Below, piece by piece: positions 41,485 through 45,103 of a stretch of 64,000 nt of DNA (the stretch's first letter is position 1; each line of letters opens with the position of its first letter). The DNA comes from Escherichia phage BAU.Micro_ELP-22. Below the pieces are notes generated by a model. The model ran no database searches. It was not told the origin of the DNA and worked only from the letters and a program-made list of their open reading frames with translations. The position numbers were made by a program, and so were the translations under genes. The DNA lies in the sequence record OR699282.2; one strand, 5' to 3'.

Positions 41485-42255
41485 ATGACCAGAGAAGCAC
41501 GTAGCATTCAAATCCAGAAAAACTTCAACTCCATGATGGTTGCTCTTGAGTGTTTGCTCGACGATAGCAGTACTGTAAAAAGTATGGTTGTCAGCGGTGC
41601 ACCTGGTGTTGGTAAGACTTACACCCTGTCACAACGCCTCCAGAAAGCTCATGACGCAGCAGAATGGAACGTAGCCACTATCAGTGGTAAGATGACTACT
41701 CTTGCTCTGTATGAAGTTCTGTACAAGAATCGTCACAGCACTAATGTATTAGTACTTGATGATATGGATAGCATCTTTGAATCAGAAGATGGTATGAACC
41801 TACTTAAAGCTGTTTTGGATAGTGGTAAGCGTACTGTATCTTATATGACTAGCTCTAAGTACTTGAGCACTAACGGCATTCCTAATAGCTTTGATTTTAA
41901 TGGTCGCATCGTATTCATTACTAACAAAGATTTAGCGTTAGATGCTAAAGCTAAAACTAAAATGTCTGCTCATTATGCTGCTCTTATGTCTCGTTCTGTG
42001 TACGTGGATTTACAGATTCAGACTAAAAGTGATATCATGATTCATATTGAAAATGTAATGACTAAGACTAATATTCTTGCATCTAAAGGTGTTAACAGTA
42101 ACGGCAGTAAAGCAATTCTGAACTGGATGTTAAAACATGAAGATAATCTTCGTGCACCATCCCTGCGTATGCCTTTGTTGATTTCAGCAGTATATAACAA
42201 CAATCCGTATGATTGGGAAGAACAATGTGAAAACTTGTTCCTTGAGAAAATCTAA
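41485..42255 (+). CDS. P-loop NTPase (Walker A/B ATPase)
   Basis: Walker A GAPGVGKT, Walker B-like VLVLDDMD. Confidence 0.65.
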   Translation: MTREARSIQIQKNFNSMMVALECLLDDSSTVKSMVVSGAPGVGKTYTLSQRLQKAHDAAEWNVATISGKMTTLALYEVLYKNRHSTNVLVLDDMDSIFESEDGMNLLKAVLDSGKRTVSYMTSSKYLSTNGIPNSFDFNGRIVFITNKDLALDAKAKTKMSAHYAALMSRSVYVDLQIQTKSDIMIHIENVMTKTNILASKGVNSNGSKAILNWMLKHEDNLRAPSLRMPLLISAVYNNNPYDWEEQCENLFLEKI

Positions 42256-42322
42256 TTACATATGTTGACAGTACTACCATCGTGTAGTACTATAACTTAA
42301 TATTCACCACCGGAGATACGAT

Positions 42323-42664
42323 ATGCTTGAGTTTTTTAATTCAGATACAATGCTTGGTATCACGCTAATTTACATGTTTGTATTTTTGTGTTATCATTCA
42401 ATTGTAATTAGTCTGTGGTATTTTAAAAGGAAAATTGTTTTTAAATTGTATTCGGATGATAATGTAGTCTTAGTTTTATATAGTATTATCCAAGGTGGGT
42501 TTATTTTATTTGGTGTGATGACATATGCGATTTACATGTTACAAATTGATAATACACCACACATTACACAATATCTTGTGTTTTCAGGTCTAATCGTGTG
42601 GTTGTTGGTGTGTAGCATGTACTTTATTATTAAAGCTCGTGATAGAATTAAAGGGGATTTCTAA
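42323..42664 (+). CDS. small multi-TM membrane protein, tandem paralog 1 of 8
   Basis: MLEFFNSDTMLGITLIY..., C-term RDRIKGDF. Confidence 0.6.
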   Translation: MLEFFNSDTMLGITLIYMFVFLCYHSIVISLWYFKRKIVFKLYSDDNVVLVLYSIIQGGFILFGVMTYAIYMLQIDNTPHITQYLVFSGLIVWLLVCSMYFIIKARDRIKGDF

Positions 42665-43002
42665 TGTTAACATTCTTTAAGTCAGATACAATGCTTAGTA
42701 TTACTTTGATTTATCTGTTTGGTTTTTTCTTTTATCATGCACTAGTTGTAGTACTATGGTATTTTAAAAAGAAAATTGTTTTTAAACTGTATCCAGTGAG
42801 GAATTCATCACTAGTTCTTTACACACTTGTTCAAGGTTTGTTTGCAATTGTTGGTCTTATGGCACACTTAATTTATTGTGCTAATCCTCACTTGAACTCA
42901 ATCTCACAATATATTGTATTCTTTGGGTTGTTCATTTGGTTAGTTGTATACTTAATCCATCTCATTATTCATGGTAGAGATAAAATTCGCGGAGACTTCT
43001 AA
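42664..43002 (+). CDS. small multi-TM membrane protein, tandem paralog 2 of 8
   Basis: MLTFFKSDTMLSITLIY..., C-term RDKIRGDF; clear paralog of 42323. Confidence 0.6.
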   Translation: MLTFFKSDTMLSITLIYLFGFFFYHALVVVLWYFKKKIVFKLYPVRNSSLVLYTLVQGLFAIVGLMAHLIYCANPHLNSISQYIVFFGLFIWLVVYLIHLIIHGRDKIRGDF

Positions 43003-43349
43003 TGTTTGAAGCTTATCTTGAGTTTTTAAGGAGTAGTCCAGTTGCACATTCAATTGCAGGGATTATTCTAACAGGTTATGTAACATTTTGGGTAGTTATG
43101 TTTCTAGGATGGTATTTTAAACGACAATTCTATAAGCGTAATGGTGAAGATTTTATGAATTCTTTCATTAATCAATCGTTGTTTGCATCAACATTGATTG
43201 CATGTATTGTGGCTGTTCTAGCCGGAAAAGCACTACCTGCTTTTTCAGTCGTTTATGGAACAATTGGTATGATATGTGTAGTTTTTCACTTGATCATTAA
43301 ACTTTGTTGTGTTATGATTGACCTTCGAAACAAGATACCGGAGGAATGA
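43002..43349 (+). CDS. small multi-TM membrane protein, tandem paralog 3 of 8
   Basis: C-term LRNKIPEE. Confidence 0.55.
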   Translation: MFEAYLEFLRSSPVAHSIAGIILTGYVTFWVVMFLGWYFKRQFYKRNGEDFMNSFINQSLFASTLIACIVAVLAGKALPAFSVVYGTIGMICVVFHLIIKLCCVMIDLRNKIPEE

Positions 43350-43684
43350 TGGAATATTTTTTACACTTACTGCCGTGGTATATGAAAGTTAGTACCATGT
43401 ACTATATTATTAGTGCTGGATTCTACTTTCTGATGTGGTTCTTTAAACGACCAATTTCAGTATTCATCGCTGATAACATGCTGCAATTAAAATTACACGC
43501 ATGGTTTGGTATGGCGATGATTATGCCTATTATTCACTACTCAATGATTAGTAGAGGTTTCCGTTCTAATGGTGAACCAATTGTATTAGTATTCTATTGG
43601 GGTTCAACTATTGCATATGTAAGTTTGTTGTTGTTCCCAGTCGTTCATAAGTTACGTGCTAAAGTTCCTGATGCGAGGTACTAA
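43346..43684 (+). CDS. small multi-TM membrane protein, tandem paralog 4 of 8
   Basis: C-term LRAKVPDARY. Confidence 0.55.
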   Translation: MMEYFLHLLPWYMKVSTMYYIISAGFYFLMWFFKRPISVFIADNMLQLKLHAWFGMAMIMPIIHYSMISRGFRSNGEPIVLVFYWGSTIAYVSLLLFPVVHKLRAKVPDARY

Positions 43685-43998
43685 TGGATATAGTAACATT
43701 GATTTACACGTTGTATTCATTCTATTTCATTATGTGTTGGGTTGGATTTTTATTTGTACTCAAGATGTTTGATTATGTTGAAAAACAGATAAAAGAATTT
43801 TGTATTCCTTTTATCGGTTCAACCATTATTAGTGTTTCTTGTGTGTATTTTTTGGTTTTTGATCCACCAGATAACACTGCAATGATTGACTTGATGTTAC
43901 TACCAACAACTGTTACTTTTTTATGTAGTCTAATGCCGCCGATTAGCCGTGGACTAACAGAATTTAGACGCAATCAAAAGCGTAAACGAGGGATGTAA
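43684..43998 (+). CDS. small multi-TM membrane protein, tandem paralog 5 of 8
   Basis: C-term basic tail RRNQKRKRGM. Confidence 0.55.
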   Translation: MDIVTLIYTLYSFYFIMCWVGFLFVLKMFDYVEKQIKEFCIPFIGSTIISVSCVYFLVFDPPDNTAMIDLMLLPTTVTFLCSLMPPISRGLTEFRRNQKRKRGM

Positions 43999-44366
43999 TG
44001 GAAATTGCTCTTATTATCTTAACTGCTATGCTGTTTATTAGTACTGTGGTTATAATTGGTAAATTCTTTTGTGTATCATTTTTAGAAACGGTATACGATG
44101 AAATTGCTGATGATTATGAATTACAAGCCGGATTTTTCATTACGTATTGGCTTAGTTTATTTTGTCTAGTCATTGCTTGGATTTTACATATCTTTAAATG
44201 GGGTATGGTAGACGGTGATCCTATTATGGCAATTATTGTTCTAGTGTTTGGTATCCTTGGTGGTGCAGTGCATAATCTAATGGTTATCTGGCAAACTGTT
44301 CAATATGTTTTGGTTCCCTATTTCGAAAAGATGCACAGTACAATTAAAAAACGTAAACGAGGTTAG
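43998..44366 (+). CDS. small multi-TM membrane protein, tandem paralog 6 of 8
   Basis: C-term basic tail KKRKRG. Confidence 0.55.
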   Translation: MEIALIILTAMLFISTVVIIGKFFCVSFLETVYDEIADDYELQAGFFITYWLSLFCLVIAWILHIFKWGMVDGDPIMAIIVLVFGILGGAVHNLMVIWQTVQYVLVPYFEKMHSTIKKRKRG

Positions 44367-44367
44367 T

Positions 44368-44730
44368 ATGAACGGGATAGAATTATCTTTCGTTGGTCAA
44401 TTACTAGTAATGGCGTATACATTTATCTTCTCACTGAATGCATTCGTGTGCATTGGGAAGTACTTCCATAAGCGACCATTATCAAATATATATGATGTAA
44501 TCCAAAAGAGATATAGTCCAGCATATACTGTGTTGGGTACAGTATTCAATTTTGGTTTTATTGTATTAATAATTGGACTGTTCACATCCTCTTTGAATAC
44601 AATAACCTTCGGTCTTATGATATGTTCATTGGTATTAGCCGTAATTATATGTTGTTTAGTACTGCACCTTGTGGTACTATTGTATATAAAGATCTCTGAA
44701 ATCCACCAACGTTTGGGTATGAGGAAATAA
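44368..44730 (+). CDS. small multi-TM membrane protein, tandem paralog 7 of 8
   Basis: ATG just after upstream stop; C-term HQRLGMRK. Confidence 0.55.
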   Translation: MNGIELSFVGQLLVMAYTFIFSLNAFVCIGKYFHKRPLSNIYDVIQKRYSPAYTVLGTVFNFGFIVLIIGLFTSSLNTITFGLMICSLVLAVIICCLVLHLVVLLYIKISEIHQRLGMRK

Positions 44731-44731
44731 T

Positions 44732-45103
44732 ATGAGTTACCGTGAGATATTTTCCATTATTTCAATTATTATGTTCAGTACTGGAACACTGGTATGGTTA
44801 TTATACTTCTTCTGTATTAATCCAGTGTATAATATGTTATGTAATATTAAATCAAGTGCCGGATATATCACTTTTATGGTCTTTATGGGATATTATTGTC
44901 TAAGCATTTTAGGTGTTGTTTTGGTTGTTATATTTGATGTGGGACCAAATAGTGATGGTATGGAAATACATGAATTAATAACCATGTTTGGATGTATGAT
45001 ACCAACAGCACTACTGTTTGTAGCTACTGGTAGTGGATTGATAAAATTATATAATTATTTAAAATCCATTCATAATTCCATTCATAATAAGCGTATGTCA
45101 TAA
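44732..45103 (+). CDS. small multi-TM membrane protein, tandem paralog 8 of 8
   Basis: C-term SIHNKRMS. Confidence 0.55.
   Translation: MSYREIFSIISIIMFSTGTLVWLLYFFCINPVYNMLCNIKSSAGYITFMVFMGYYCLSILGVVLVVIFDVGPNSDGMEIHELITMFGCMIPTALLFVATGSGLIKLYNYLKSIHNSIHNKRMS

What the first reader, a model, noticed from the sequence alone, without database searches (positions are those of the whole stretch)
41485..45103. P-loop ATPase followed by eight tandem small multi-TM membrane paralogs
A Walker A/B NTPase (GAPGVGKT, VLVLDD) launched from a PeSL element is immediately followed by eight consecutive ~105-125 aa hydrophobic proteins; the first two are obvious paralogs (MLEFFNSDTMLGITLIY / MLTFFKSDTMLSITLIY, both ending RD[RK]I[KR]GDF) and later copies keep a basic C-terminal tail. 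A related trio lies at 34895-35930. An ATPase plus a diversified membrane-protein array could be an exclusion, anti-defence or membrane-remodelling module.
Basis: partly seen in the sequence, partly recalled or inferred. Interest (0 to 1): 0.55.

Follow-up and report, generated by a model that had tools for sequence, protein, structure and literature searches.

The report
Jumbo-phage early membrane-protein gene array
A giant E. coli phage carries eleven diverged copies of one small three-helix membrane protein, eight of them in a tightly packed early operon just after a widespread phage ATPase. The family is real, is restricted to this phage group and has no known function, and the ATPase is probably only a neighbour.

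Summary
The window is an Asteriusvirus (RaK2-like jumbo coliphage, 99.8% identical to SHEFM2K).

- **ATPase.** ORF 41485-42255 is an AAA+ ATPase. It is a short-form homologue of T4 NrdC.10, an uncharacterised family present in more than 1,300 phage records.
- **Promoter.** It is launched from a PeSL-like stem-loop plus sigma-70 promoter, one of eight copies in the window.
- **Array.** Eight stop/start-overlapping ORFs (42323-45103) follow it. With the trio at 34895-35930 they form one family of 100-130 aa proteins with three predicted membrane helices, N-terminus out and C-terminus in.
- **Conservation pattern.** TM1, the cytoplasmic loop and a basic C-terminal helix are conserved. The TM2-loop-TM3 hairpin is variable.
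- **Distribution.** The family is confined to RaK2-like phages: 28 representatives among 1.8 billion proteins, with no Pfam, PDB or viral-fold match.
- **Age and divergence.** The array is old and positionally conserved, yet very divergent between close relatives (25-66% identity where flanking genes are 95-96%).
- **Link to the ATPase.** Adjacency holds only within this clade. Elsewhere the ATPase sits among DNA and nucleotide-metabolism genes, and its alleles assort independently of the array.

My best reading is a set of early inner-membrane proteins for exclusion or envelope protection, with an unrelated ATPase next door. The mechanism is inferred, not shown. Interest is moderate.

The parts
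41420..41456 (+). PeSL-like composite element: a stem-loop that contains the -35 hexamer TTGACT, followed by TATAAT. It is the putative early promoter of the ATPase-array unit.
   Evidence: Sequence read; promoter scan scores 11 of 12 with a TG extension; RNA fold -16.8 kcal/mol; 8 copies of the core in the window against 0 expected.
41485..42255 (+). AAA+ ATPase, a short-form homologue of T4 NrdC.10 (256 aa).
   Evidence: phrog_1250 E 3e-103, covering profile positions 77-326 of 327. 38% identity over 247 aa to Bp7 NrdC.10. AF2 model pLDDT 92.6. Foldseek matches RuvB, Orc1/Cdc6, ClpA, Bcs1, NtrC1 and RFC at TM about 0.5. Invariant residues G38, G41, G43, K44, D92, D93, N147, R170 and R228.
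42265..42293 (+). Intergenic hairpin AGTACTAC-CATCGT-GTAGTACT overlapping a weaker promoter-like site (TTGACA, 17 nt, TACTAT). Possibly an attenuator or an internal promoter between the ATPase and M1.
   Evidence: -10.4 kcal/mol. There is no T-run after the stem.
42323..42664 (+). M1, 3-TM family member (113 aa). This gene is absent from the genomes that carry 7-gene arrays.
   Evidence: phrog_19454.
42664..43002 (+). M2, 3-TM family member (112 aa), 54% identical to M1.
   Evidence: phrog_19454.
43002..43349 (+). M3, 3-TM family member (115 aa); the member that was modelled.
   Evidence: phrog_19046. AF2 pLDDT 76 with helices 13-38, 42-53, 55-75 and 81-111..
43349..43684 (+). M4, family member (111 or 112 aa, depending on which of two adjacent ATG codons is used).
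   Evidence: phrog_27396.
43684..43998 (+). M5, family member (104 aa). It is frameshifted in phage 121Q.
   Evidence: phrog_33258.
43998..44366 (+). M6, family member (122 aa).
   Evidence: phrog_26405.
44368..44730 (+). M7, family member (120 aa from the annotated start).
   Evidence: No PHROG match. Retrieved by the RaK2-only and Mimasvirus-only profiles. Orthologues.
44732..45103 (+). M8, family member (123 aa).
   Evidence: phrog_27618. Full-length weak match to T1.
45108..45133 (.). Perfect 11-bp hairpin AATCCAGTACT-TGAT-AGTACTGGATT immediately after M8.
   Evidence: -15.5 kcal/mol. The T-run lies on the minus-strand side only.
45145..45807 (+). 220-aa basic, non-membrane ORF that closes the + strand unit. 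In RaK2, A4, GAP32 and BF a DUF1190 lipoprotein gene occupies this position instead.
   Evidence: phrog_34359 only.
34895..35233 (+). T1, member of the same 3-TM family (112 aa).
   Evidence: phrog_19285.
35237..35584 (+). T2, family member (115 aa).
   Evidence: phrog_19285.
35586..35930 (+). T3, family member (114 aa from the ATG at 35586; 122 aa from the GTG at 35562).
   Evidence: phrog_19285 E 2e-4.
33848..33879 (+). PeSL-like promoter/stem-loop that launches the unit carrying the kinase, a 93-aa ORF and T1-T3.
39992..41416 (+). Free-standing homing endonuclease gene inserted directly upstream of the ATPase. This is context, not part of the array.
   Evidence: phrog_559 and phrog_9084. 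Different endonuclease genes occupy the same site in relatives.

Best explanation
**Shown**
- M1-M8 and T1-T3 are eleven members of one protein family specific to RaK2-like jumbo phages.
- Each is about 100-130 aa with three predicted transmembrane helices.
- The M genes form a stop/start-overlapping (TAATG) operon. It lies downstream of a near-consensus sigma-70 promoter/stem-loop and of an NrdC.10-type AAA+ ATPase gene.

**Inferred**
- The proteins are made early and insert into the host inner membrane with the N-terminus out and the C-terminus in.
- TM1 (ending in G-W-x-F), the cytoplasmic loop and the amphipathic basic C-terminal helix (L..L[R/H]..I..[K/R][K/R]) form a common scaffold.
- The fast-diverging TM2, periplasmic loop and TM3 hairpin carry each paralog's specificity.

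**Most likely function (by analogy, not shown)**
- The array is a toolkit of envelope-level protective factors. I favour superinfection exclusion or blocking of membrane entry or damage by competing phages, in the way T4 Imm, P22 SieA and HK97 gp15 work.
- The ATPase is most likely a functionally independent, DNA-related AAA+ protein that only shares the transcription unit.
For: **One family.** The RaK2-only profile picks exactly the 11 window ORFs. The reversed-sequence decoy control gives 278 real links against 1.

**Topology.** K+R per protein: N-terminus 0.33, loop 1 2.46, loop 2 0.23, C-terminal tail 4.85. The AF2 model has three long helices plus a cytoplasmic helix.

**Conserved cytoplasmic side, variable TM2-loop2-TM3.** Column entropies are. 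Against A4, regional identity is TM1 49%, loop 1 43% and C-tail 44%, but TM2 32%, loop 2 26% and TM3 25%.

**Early-type expression.**
- The promoter matches 11 of 12 consensus positions with a TG extension.
- No T4-type late motif occurs on the + strand between 33000 and 46000.
- The homologous CBB region is described as the suspected early region (PMC5259590).

**Operon.** Gaps between M genes are -1, -1, -1, -1, -1, +1 and +1 nt.

**Accessory, fast-diverging character.**
- Between the window and A4, the ATPase and two upstream genes are 95-96% identical while the array genes are 25-66% identical.
- dN/dS is 0.1-0.6 for array genes and 0.03 for the ATPase.
- Copy number varies from about 4 to 8 across genera.
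- M5 is frameshifted in 121Q.

**Restricted family.** 28 representatives among 1.84e9 proteins. The two more distant representatives whose contigs I looked up lie in tandem arrays.

**ATPase independence.**. Its weak sequence and fold affinities are with Orc/Cdc6, RFC, Hda, IstB and RuvB.
Against: - There is no experimental or homology link to any known exclusion protein. Pfam, PHROGs, NCBIfam, PADLOC, PDB and BFVD give nothing informative.
- The array is ancient and positionally orthologous from Asteriusvirus to RaK2, and its last gene type is shared with GAP32, BF and XbC2. That fits non-redundant subunits of one complex at least as well as a set of independent exclusion factors.
- Part of the C-terminal K/R/G conservation may be imposed by the Shine-Dalgarno sequence of the next gene, which lies in those codons.
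- Early timing is inferred from promoter sequence only.
- ATPase-array adjacency is conserved throughout the clade, sometimes with gaps of 0-1 nt, so coupling is not excluded.
Confidence: 0.35

Rival explanations
1. ATPase-coupled membrane complex, a sharper form of the first reader's module. The paralogs are non-redundant subunits of one hetero-oligomeric inner-membrane assembly made in fixed ratios by translational coupling. Their conserved basic C-terminal helices dock the NrdC.10-type AAA+ ring. In relatives the assembly would continue outward through the downstream 1-TM protein and the DUF1190 lipoprotein.
For: - Adjacency is conserved across at least four genera down to 45% ATPase identity, with 0-1 nt gaps in A4, GAP32 and BF.
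- Stop/start overlaps run through the array.
- The array shows ancient positional orthology rather than recent duplication.
- The motifs shared by all paralogs face the cytoplasm.
- The ATPase has an invariant putative arginine finger (R170) and a sensor 2 (R228), as expected for an oligomeric AAA+.
- The block ATPase, array, 1-TM protein, DUF1190 lipoprotein recurs in GAP32 and BF. In RaK2 and A4 the DUF1190 gene follows the array directly.
Against: - The NrdC.10 family occurs in more than 1,300 phage records. In the eight contexts examined outside the clade it never sits next to this family.
- T1-T3 and Munch ORF 1678-2007 lie apart from any ATPase.
- ATPase alleles that are 58% identical pair with 99.9%-identical arrays.
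- In the window a 67-nt spacer with a hairpin and a promoter-like site separates the ATPase from M1.
- Recombination breakpoints fall inside the array (identity declines from M3 to M8 against vB_Ec-M-J).
- RaK2 has a non-membrane ORF between the ATPase and its array.
Confidence: 0.15
2. Anti-defence array. Each paralog neutralises a different host membrane-embedded abortive-infection or defence effector, or a membrane sensor, early in infection.
For: - The expression signals are of the early type.
- Allelic divergence between near-identical phages is extreme and copy number fluctuates, as expected for arms-race genes.
- The variable part is the TM2-loop-TM3 hairpin, which could pair with the TM segments of a target.
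Against: - No match to PADLOC or to any known anti-defence family.
- dN/dS stays below 1.
- The array composition is ancient and stable across hosts as different as E. coli, Klebsiella, Cronobacter, Serratia and Xanthomonas. That argues against targets specific to a host strain.
Confidence: 0.2
3. Lysis control. The proteins are class-I-holin-like holins or antiholins that set lysis timing. In relatives the downstream 1-TM protein and lipoprotein would act as a spanin-like pair.
For: - Size (100-130 aa), three TM helices, N-out/C-in topology and a highly charged basic C-terminus are the textbook class I holin architecture (the comparison itself rests on general knowledge of lambda S).
- GAP32 and BF have a 1-TM protein followed by a lipobox protein after the array.
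- The clade's endolysin has an N-terminal TM domain and lies elsewhere in the genome (PMC5259590).
Against: - The promoter is a sigma-70 early type, and no late motif occurs in 33-46 kb.
- Eleven copies is far more than any lysis cassette carries.
- No similarity to any Pfam or PHROG holin family.
- None of the matching public records shown calls these genes holins, including Munch, whose record annotates ribosome-binding sites and terminators in detail.
- DUF1190 proteins (180-210 aa) are far larger than o-spanins, and this window has none.
Confidence: 0.1
4. Dispensable ORFan filler. The genes are hyperplastic-region cargo moved about by PeSL recombination, with no important function.
For: - They sit in a PeSL-rich plastic region.
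- M5 is frameshifted in 121Q.
- M1 is present or absent depending on the genome.
- Constraint is relaxed relative to the neighbours.
Against: - Intact full-length ORFs persist at 25-98% identity with dN/dS of 0.1-0.6.
- The family is retained across at least five genera, with conserved motifs.
Confidence: 0.05

Closest known systems
T4 NrdC.10 (phrog_1250), an uncharacterised AAA+ ATPase of T4-like and related large myoviruses
   Same: There is clear homology: 38% identity over 247 aa to Bp7 NrdC.10 (E 4e-56) and E 3e-103 to the PHROG profile. The Walker A and B motifs, sensor residues and helical lid are conserved.
   Different: The roughly 95-100 aa N-terminal region of the T4-like proteins (335-352 aa) is missing here (256 aa). 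In T4-likes the gene sits with nrdC.11, nrdC, topoisomerase or primase genes, not with membrane-protein arrays.
PeSL (promoter-early stem-loop) cassettes of T4-type phages (Arbiol 2010, PMC2839356; Comeau 2014, PMC4122927)
   Same: It is a composite of a stable stem-loop and a near-consensus sigma-70 promoter. It is repeated many times in a plastic early region. Its A3-4 G3 ... C3 T3-5 stem resembles the nt-1 type.
   Different: Here the -35 hexamer lies inside the stem. The phage is RaK2-like rather than a Straboviridae member. Terminator activity and recombination at these sites were not tested.
Class I holins (for example lambda S105)
   Same: Length of about 100-125 aa, three TM helices, predicted N-out/C-in topology and a charged basic C-terminal tail.
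   Different: There is no sequence or profile similarity. The promoter is early rather than late, there are eleven copies, and the genes are not next to an endolysin.
Small inner-membrane superinfection-exclusion proteins (T4 Imm, P22 SieA, HK97 gp15)
   Same: They are small, phage-encoded inner-membrane proteins. Imm is made early by a lytic phage. They are accessory genes and evolve quickly.
   Different: No homology was detected. The known examples are single-copy genes with 2-4 TM helices, not an ancient 8-11 member array. No phenotype is known here.
Tandem multigene families of large DNA viruses ('genomic accordion' arrays)
   Same: Tandem paralogs, copy-number differences between relatives, and high divergence.
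   Different: Synonymous divergence between the paralogs is saturated and positional orthologues exist across genera. This is an old, maintained array rather than a recent amplification.

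Membership tests
AAA+ ATPase superfamily | Walker A GxxGxGK[ST] and Walker B hhhhD[DE] | tested here: met
   GAPGVGKT (residues 38-45) and VLVLDD (88-93). G38, G41, G43, K44, D92 and D93 are invariant in 36 homologues.
AAA+ ATPase superfamily | Alpha/beta ATPase core followed by a helical lid, with sensor 1, arginine-finger and sensor 2 residues | tested here: met
   AF2 model pLDDT 92.6 with a beta-alpha core followed by four C-terminal helices. 276 PDB chains match at E<=1e-3; the 50 listed are all AAA+ ATPases, led by RuvB, ORC/Cdc6, ClpA, Bcs1, NtrC1 and RFC. 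N147, R170 and R228 are invariant; their roles are assigned by position only.
T4 NrdC.10 family (phrog_1250) | Significant full-domain homology to NrdC.10 proteins | tested here: met
   phrog_1250 E 3e-103; BLASTP to Bp7 NrdC.10 E 4e-56; tblastn hits annotated nrdC.10.
T4 NrdC.10 family (phrog_1250) | N-terminal extension of about 95-100 aa, as in the T4-like proteins | tested here: not met
   The match covers profile positions 77-326 only. The 77-aa ORF upstream of the homing endonuclease is not the missing piece.
PeSL cassette | Stable stem-loop combined with a sigma-70-like early promoter, repeated in a plastic region | tested here: met
   There are eight + strand copies between 27994 and 41442.
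PeSL cassette | Terminator activity, and recombination between copies | not testable with these tools
   Only indirect evidence: gene content differs between relatives in the region that carries these elements.
Class I holin | About 95-130 aa, three TM helices, N-out/C-in, charged C-terminus | tested here: met
   Hydropathy, positive-inside counts and the AF2 model. These are predictions only.
Class I holin | Homology to a recognised holin family | tested here: not met
   No Pfam or PHROG holin hit at E<=1 and E<=0.01 respectively. No BFVD or PDB fold match outside its own family.
Class I holin | Late expression within a lysis cassette | tested here: not met
   Sigma-70 early-type promoter; no late TATAAATA motif on the + strand in 33-46 kb; no endolysin nearby.
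Superinfection-exclusion membrane proteins (Imm/Sie type) | Small phage-encoded inner-membrane protein expressed before or early in infection | tested here: inconclusive
   The architecture and the promoter type fit, but neither localisation nor timing has been measured.
Superinfection-exclusion membrane proteins (Imm/Sie type) | Sequence homology to a known exclusion protein | tested here: not met
Superinfection-exclusion membrane proteins (Imm/Sie type) | Exclusion phenotype | not testable with these tools
   Needs plating or injection assays.
RaK2-like 3-TM array family (defined here; merges phrogs 19454, 19046, 27396, 33258, 26405, 27618, 19285) | 100-130 aa; three TM helices; G-W-x-F at the end of TM1; C-terminal L..L[R/H]..I..[K/R][K/R]; genes in tandem arrays | tested here: met
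   for all eleven window ORFs.

The most novel reading that the evidence does not exclude
The paralogs are obligate, non-redundant subunits of a previously unknown phage-built inner-membrane machine, assembled early in RaK2-like jumbo-phage infection. The conserved cytoplasmic C-terminal helices recruit the NrdC.10-type AAA+ ring as its motor. In relatives the downstream 1-TM protein and DUF1190 lipoprotein extend the machine across the periplasm. The result would be an ATP-driven, envelope-spanning device for exclusion, transport or membrane remodelling, and T4 NrdC.10 would gain its first function.
Probability: 0.1. Interest if true: 0.75.

Novelty: new variant of a known kind. Interest (0 to 1): 0.4.

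Why it matters
RaK2-like jumbo phages (Asteriusvirus, Alcyoneusvirus, Mimasvirus, Eneladusvirus) are being isolated for phage therapy, yet more than 80% of their genes have no assigned function.

This analysis merges seven or more 'unknown' PHROG families into one membrane-protein family with a defined topology and defined motifs. It also shows a clear split between a conserved scaffold and a variable hairpin.

The family forms an ancient array that is maintained across genera and still differs strongly between phages that are otherwise about 95% identical. That pattern is typical of genes that decide the outcome of phage-phage or phage-host conflict at the cell envelope. The array is small and easy to clone, so it is a practical target for exclusion and host-range experiments.

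The analysis also corrects misleading public annotations of the ATPase, which is labelled 'clamp loader', 'FleQ' or 'thioredoxin' in several records. It shows that gene adjacency alone does not make the ATPase part of the membrane system.

Tried and rejected
1. **Split-gene idea.** I tested whether the 77-aa ORF upstream of the homing endonuclease is the missing NrdC.10 N-terminus. It shows no similarity and belongs to a separate PHROG.
2. **'Phi92_gp231' and 'Phi92_gp233' notes in the ph0011 record.** These suggested an ATPase-membrane pair in phage phi92. The phi92 genes are unrelated small ORFs, so the notes are an annotation artefact.
3. **Second ATPase in the Mimasvirus arrays.** The 254-266 aa non-membrane protein inside the GAP32, BF and XbC2 arrays is not an ATPase paralog.
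4. **NrdC.11.** This frequent neighbour of NrdC.10 in T4-likes is absent from the window and from all fetched RaK2-like loci.
5. **Fold searches with the M3 model.** BFVD returned only a member of the same family, and PDB returned nothing. The afdb50 library was unavailable.
6. **Sequence and profile searches of the ATPase against PDB.** Only P-loop-level hits appeared: mS29, ORC1, RFC4, Bcs1, TnsC. No AAA+ clade could be assigned.
7. **Literature.** Searches on RaK2, CBB, phAPEC6, UE-S1, fEgEco12, a jumbo-phage comparative review and the PhiKZ vesicle preprint found no description or transcriptomics of this array.
8. **DUF1190 homologue.** None lies elsewhere in the window.
9. **Wider profile search.** The word-indexed protein search with the family profile returned only close relatives.

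Full report
**Source and observation**

The region is 99.8% identical to Escherichia phage SHEFM2K and 95-97% identical to 121Q, G17, SP27 and PBECO4. The window therefore comes from an Asteriusvirus, a RaK2-like jumbo coliphage.

ORF 41485-42255 (256 aa) carries GAPGVGKT and VLVLDD. It is followed by eight + strand ORFs of 104-123 aa. A Kyte-Doolittle scan finds three hydrophobic segments in seven of them. M4 passes the threshold in only one segment, but it aligns over its full length with the others. All eight have a basic C-terminal tail. Consecutive M genes overlap stop and start (TAATG) or lie 1 nt apart.

**The promoter**

Upstream of the ATPase lies AAAGGGTTGAC-TTCG-GTCGGCCCTTTTT-GC-TATAAT. 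The stem-loop folds at -16.8 kcal/mol and contains the -35 hexamer TTGACT; TATAAT follows 18 nt downstream, preceded by TG.

The core GGTTGACTTCGGTCRGCC occurs eight times in the window, all on the + strand between 27994 and 41442, against zero expected. This matches the published definition of PeSL cassettes, a sigma-70 promoter combined with a stem-loop and repeated in plastic regions (PMC2839356, PMC4122927). The difference is that here the -35 hexamer lies inside the stem.

No further copy lies between 41442 and the end of the + strand genes at 45807. The ATPase, M1-M8 and the 220-aa ORF therefore appear to form the last unit launched by such an element. Two hairpins lie within it, at 42270-42291 (overlapping a weaker promoter-like site) and at 45108-45133. 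No T4-type late promoter motif lies on the + strand between 33 and 46 kb. The homologous region of phage CBB is described as the suspected early region (PMC5259590). Early expression is therefore inferred, not shown.

**The ATPase**

- It scores E 3e-103 against phrog_1250, covering profile positions 77-326 only.
- It is 38% identical over 247 aa to NrdC.10 of the T4-like phage Bp7.
- tblastn finds homologues in 1,309 phage records: Straboviridae, some Ackermannviridae, PA5oct, Xanthomonas jumbo phages and all RaK2-like phages.
- The only paper found that discusses NrdC.10 notes just a weak AAA match (PMC1524935).
- The AF2 model is confident (pLDDT 92.6). It is a generic AAA+ fold, with best Foldseek matches to RuvB, ORC/Cdc6, ClpA, Bcs1, NtrC1 and RFC at TM about 0.5.
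- The Walker residues, N147, R170 and R228 are invariant.
- Sequence-level affinities are weak and point to Orc/Cdc6, Hda, IstB, RFC and TnsC.

This is a short form. It lacks the 95-100 aa N-terminus of the T4-like proteins, and the upstream 77-aa ORF is not that piece.

**The membrane proteins are one family**

Pairwise, only M1 with M2 (54% identity) and T1 with T2 and T3 are obvious relatives. I then added the array proteins of vB_Ec-M-J, A4, RaK2, Munch, GAP32, Serratia BF and XbC2, giving 55 sequences.

- All-against-all phmmer links 52 of the 55 at E<=1e-3.
- Reversed sequences control for hydrophobic composition. There are 278 real links against 1 decoy at 1e-3, and 209 against 0 at 1e-4.
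- A profile built only from the eight RaK2 proteins ranks exactly the eleven window ORFs first among 264 window ORFs (E 7e-10 to 7e-4; next best 0.09). A profile built only from Mimasvirus and Eneladusvirus proteins puts eight members on top.

The family merges phrogs 19454, 19046, 27396, 33258, 26405, 27618 and 19285, plus an ORF with no PHROG match.

**Architecture**

The alignment, column statistics and regional counts give this layout:

1. a short acidic N-terminus;
2. TM1, ending in [IVL]-G-W-[FLY]-F;
3. a mixed-charge loop with a conserved Tyr;
4. TM2, ending near a conserved Gly;
5. a short second loop that is rich in insertions and deletions;
6. TM3, continuing into an amphipathic helix L..L[R/H]..I..[K/R][K/R].

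K+R per protein is 0.33 in the N-terminus, 2.46 in loop 1, 0.23 in loop 2 and 4.85 in the C-tail. By the positive-inside rule this predicts N-out/C-in. The AF2 model of M3 (pLDDT 76) has helices 13-38, 42-53, 55-75 and 81-111, with low confidence only in loop 2.

One caveat applies. The last few residues of each protein overlap the Shine-Dalgarno sequence of the next gene. This may contribute to the K/R/G bias at the very end. The conserved R/H position lies further upstream, and the last genes of each array (M8, T3) keep basic tails too.

**Distribution**

An exhaustive profile search of 1.84 billion representative proteins found only 28 hits at E<=1e-3, nearly all 89-127 aa. I looked up the contigs of two of the more distant hits, and both lie in tandem arrays. 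One is in phage A4 with the same gene context, and the other is a short contig of five consecutive genes of about 86-130 aa. Pfam, NCBIfam, PADLOC, PDB and BFVD give nothing outside the family. GAP32's annotators had already noted '3 transmembrane domains' for six of these genes. No paper I could find describes the family.

**Evolution**

The array has positional orthologues:

| Comparison | Result |
|---|---|
| Window vs A4 | M2-M8 colinear, 25-66% aa identity |
| RaK2 | Recognisable counterparts of M1/2, M3 (two copies), M4, M5, M6 and M8, plus a terminal gene type shared with GAP32, BF and XbC2 |
| Window vs A4, flanking genes | ATPase, orf77 and endonuclease V 95-96% identical |
| dN/dS | Array genes 0.1-0.6; ATPase 0.03 |
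| Window vs vB_Ec-M-J | Identity falls from about 91% (M3-M5) to 63% (M8) and 47% (220-aa ORF), so recombination breakpoints lie inside the array |

Synonymous divergence within the array is saturated. M1 is absent from the 7-gene arrays, and M5 is frameshifted in 121Q. Against A4 the most conserved regions are TM1, loop 1 and the C-tail (43-49% identity). The least conserved are TM2, loop 2 and TM3 (25-32%). The family is therefore old, kept intact by purifying selection, accessory in character and highly polymorphic.

**Is the ATPase part of it?**

For a link:
- The order 'ATPase, then the array' holds in every RaK2-like genome examined, sometimes with gaps of 0-1 nt.
- In GAP32 and BF the block continues with a 1-TM protein and a DUF1190 lipoprotein. 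In RaK2 and A4 the DUF1190 gene follows the array directly.

Against a link:
- In eight contexts outside the clade the ATPase never has this family next to it. Its annotated neighbours include NrdC.11, NrdC/vs.1, topoisomerase and primase/helicase. PA5oct and one metagenomic contig have a single 2-TM protein downstream.
- Family members occur without an ATPase. T1-T3 follow a protein kinase gene here, and a T-like gene lies near the kinase gene in Munch.
- ATPase alleles that are 58% identical accompany 99.9%-identical arrays. The breakpoint lies near window position 42037.
- A 67-nt spacer with a hairpin and a promoter-like site separates the ATPase from M1.

I judge the ATPase independent with a probability of about 0.7.

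**Mechanism**

What is shown is the anatomy. What is inferred is early insertion into the inner membrane, with a common cytoplasmic face and a diversified TM2-loop-TM3 hairpin. By analogy with small early or prophage inner-membrane exclusion proteins, I favour envelope-level exclusion or protection (0.35). The rivals are:

- anti-defence against membrane effectors (0.2);
- an ATPase-coupled hetero-oligomeric complex (0.15);
- holin or antiholin-like lysis control (0.1), which shares the architecture but not the timing, copy number or homology;
- dispensable filler (0.05).

**Verdict**

This is an uncharacterised, clade-restricted variant of the familiar class of phage accessory membrane proteins, arranged in an unusually old and large array. 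It is of moderate interest. It would become considerably more interesting if the paralogs prove to form one machine with the ATPase.

Noticed in passing
window, 40 sites (e.g. 3639, 22275, 36590, 41568, 44776, 45814, 61130-61370); also L008 (GAP32): The 8-bp palindrome CAGTACTG occurs 40 times in the window against 0.94 expected. AGTACT occurs 211 times in the window, and 27 times against 2.9 expected in a 12-kb GAP32 locus. Sites lie in promoter spacers (CAGTACTGTATAAT) and inside coding regions of genes in both orientations. The related AGTACT core also forms the stems of the two hairpins that flank the array. The enrichment is clade-wide and unexplained; it could be a binding, modification or recombination site.
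   Followed up: partly
window 39992-41416 and the equivalent site in L002, L006, L008, L009, L016: The position directly upstream of the NrdC.10 ATPase is a hot spot for free-standing homing endonucleases. Different endonuclease genes occupy it in this phage, vB_Ec-M-J, A4, GAP32, BF and 121Q. The two genomes without one (UE-S1, ph0011) carry the divergent (58%) ATPase allele, and the breakpoint lies inside the ATPase gene near 42037. This suggests homing-driven co-conversion of the ATPase gene.
   Followed up: partly
window 27994, 31236, 31419, 32763, 33848, 38422, 39704, 41425: Eight copies of the same PeSL-like stem-loop (GGTTGACTTCGGTCRGCC, most followed by a -10-like hexamer such as TATAAT) are present, all on the + strand. 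They divide the early region into short cassettes. One copy, at 32763, lies inside the longest reading of ORF 32749-33075, whose real start is probably the internal MKKYIIFG signal-peptide-like methionine.
   Followed up: partly
window 3625, 4034, 4413, 22261, 26223, 36576: A second class of near-consensus promoters has no stem-loop. Its form is TTGAC[AT], then a spacer ending in [CT]AGTACTG, then the -10 hexamer TATAAT (ATATAAT at 4413).
   Followed up: no
L005 8744-9340, L006 7803-8354, L008 9732-10687, L009 9422-10406: In RaK2, A4, GAP32 and BF the array is followed by a 180-210 aa DUF1190 (YgiB-like) protein with a lipobox-like motif ahead of a Cys (LTAC, MTGC or LTGC). In GAP32 and BF, and also in XbC2, a roughly 95-aa single-TM protein with an acidic tail follows the array first. 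This window has an unrelated basic 220-aa ORF (45145-45807) at that position and no DUF1190 homologue anywhere.
   Followed up: partly
window 45788-64000, minus strand: A long run of paralogous RCC1-like / WD40_RLD repeat proteins, annotated 'regulator of chromosome condensation' or 'DNA condensation protein' in relatives, converges on the end of the + strand early region. GC skew switches sign at about 46 kb.
   Followed up: no
window 33875-34549: A protein kinase gene matching the PHROG described as an inhibitor of host transcription (phrog_15752, E 2.5e-97) heads the PeSL unit that carries T1-T3. In Munch the kinase gene lies only 1.7 kb upstream of the ATPase, so the two parts of the family may once have been contiguous.
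   Followed up: partly
L016 (121Q) 2877-3192: The M5 orthologue is split by a frameshift in the 121Q record (genes 228 and 229). This is either a pseudogene or a sequencing error.
   Followed up: no
public records of the ATPase orthologues: The NrdC.10-type ATPase is annotated in different records as 'clamp loader of DNA polymerase', 'transcriptional regulator FleQ', 'thioredoxin', 'regulator of chromosome condensation' and 'archaellum component FlaC'. None of these labels is supported by the analyses here.
   Followed up: yes
window 37422-37673 and 39036-39230: Two further small hydrophobic ORFs (83 aa and 64 aa, two or three hydrophobic segments each) lie in the same early region. They do not belong to the 3-TM family (E>1 against the family profile).
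   Followed up: partly
L008 7479-8243, L009 7133-7933, L010 8402-9184: In GAP32, BF and XbC2 a conserved soluble protein of 254-266 aa interrupts the membrane array. It is not related to the ATPase and its function is unknown.
   Followed up: partly
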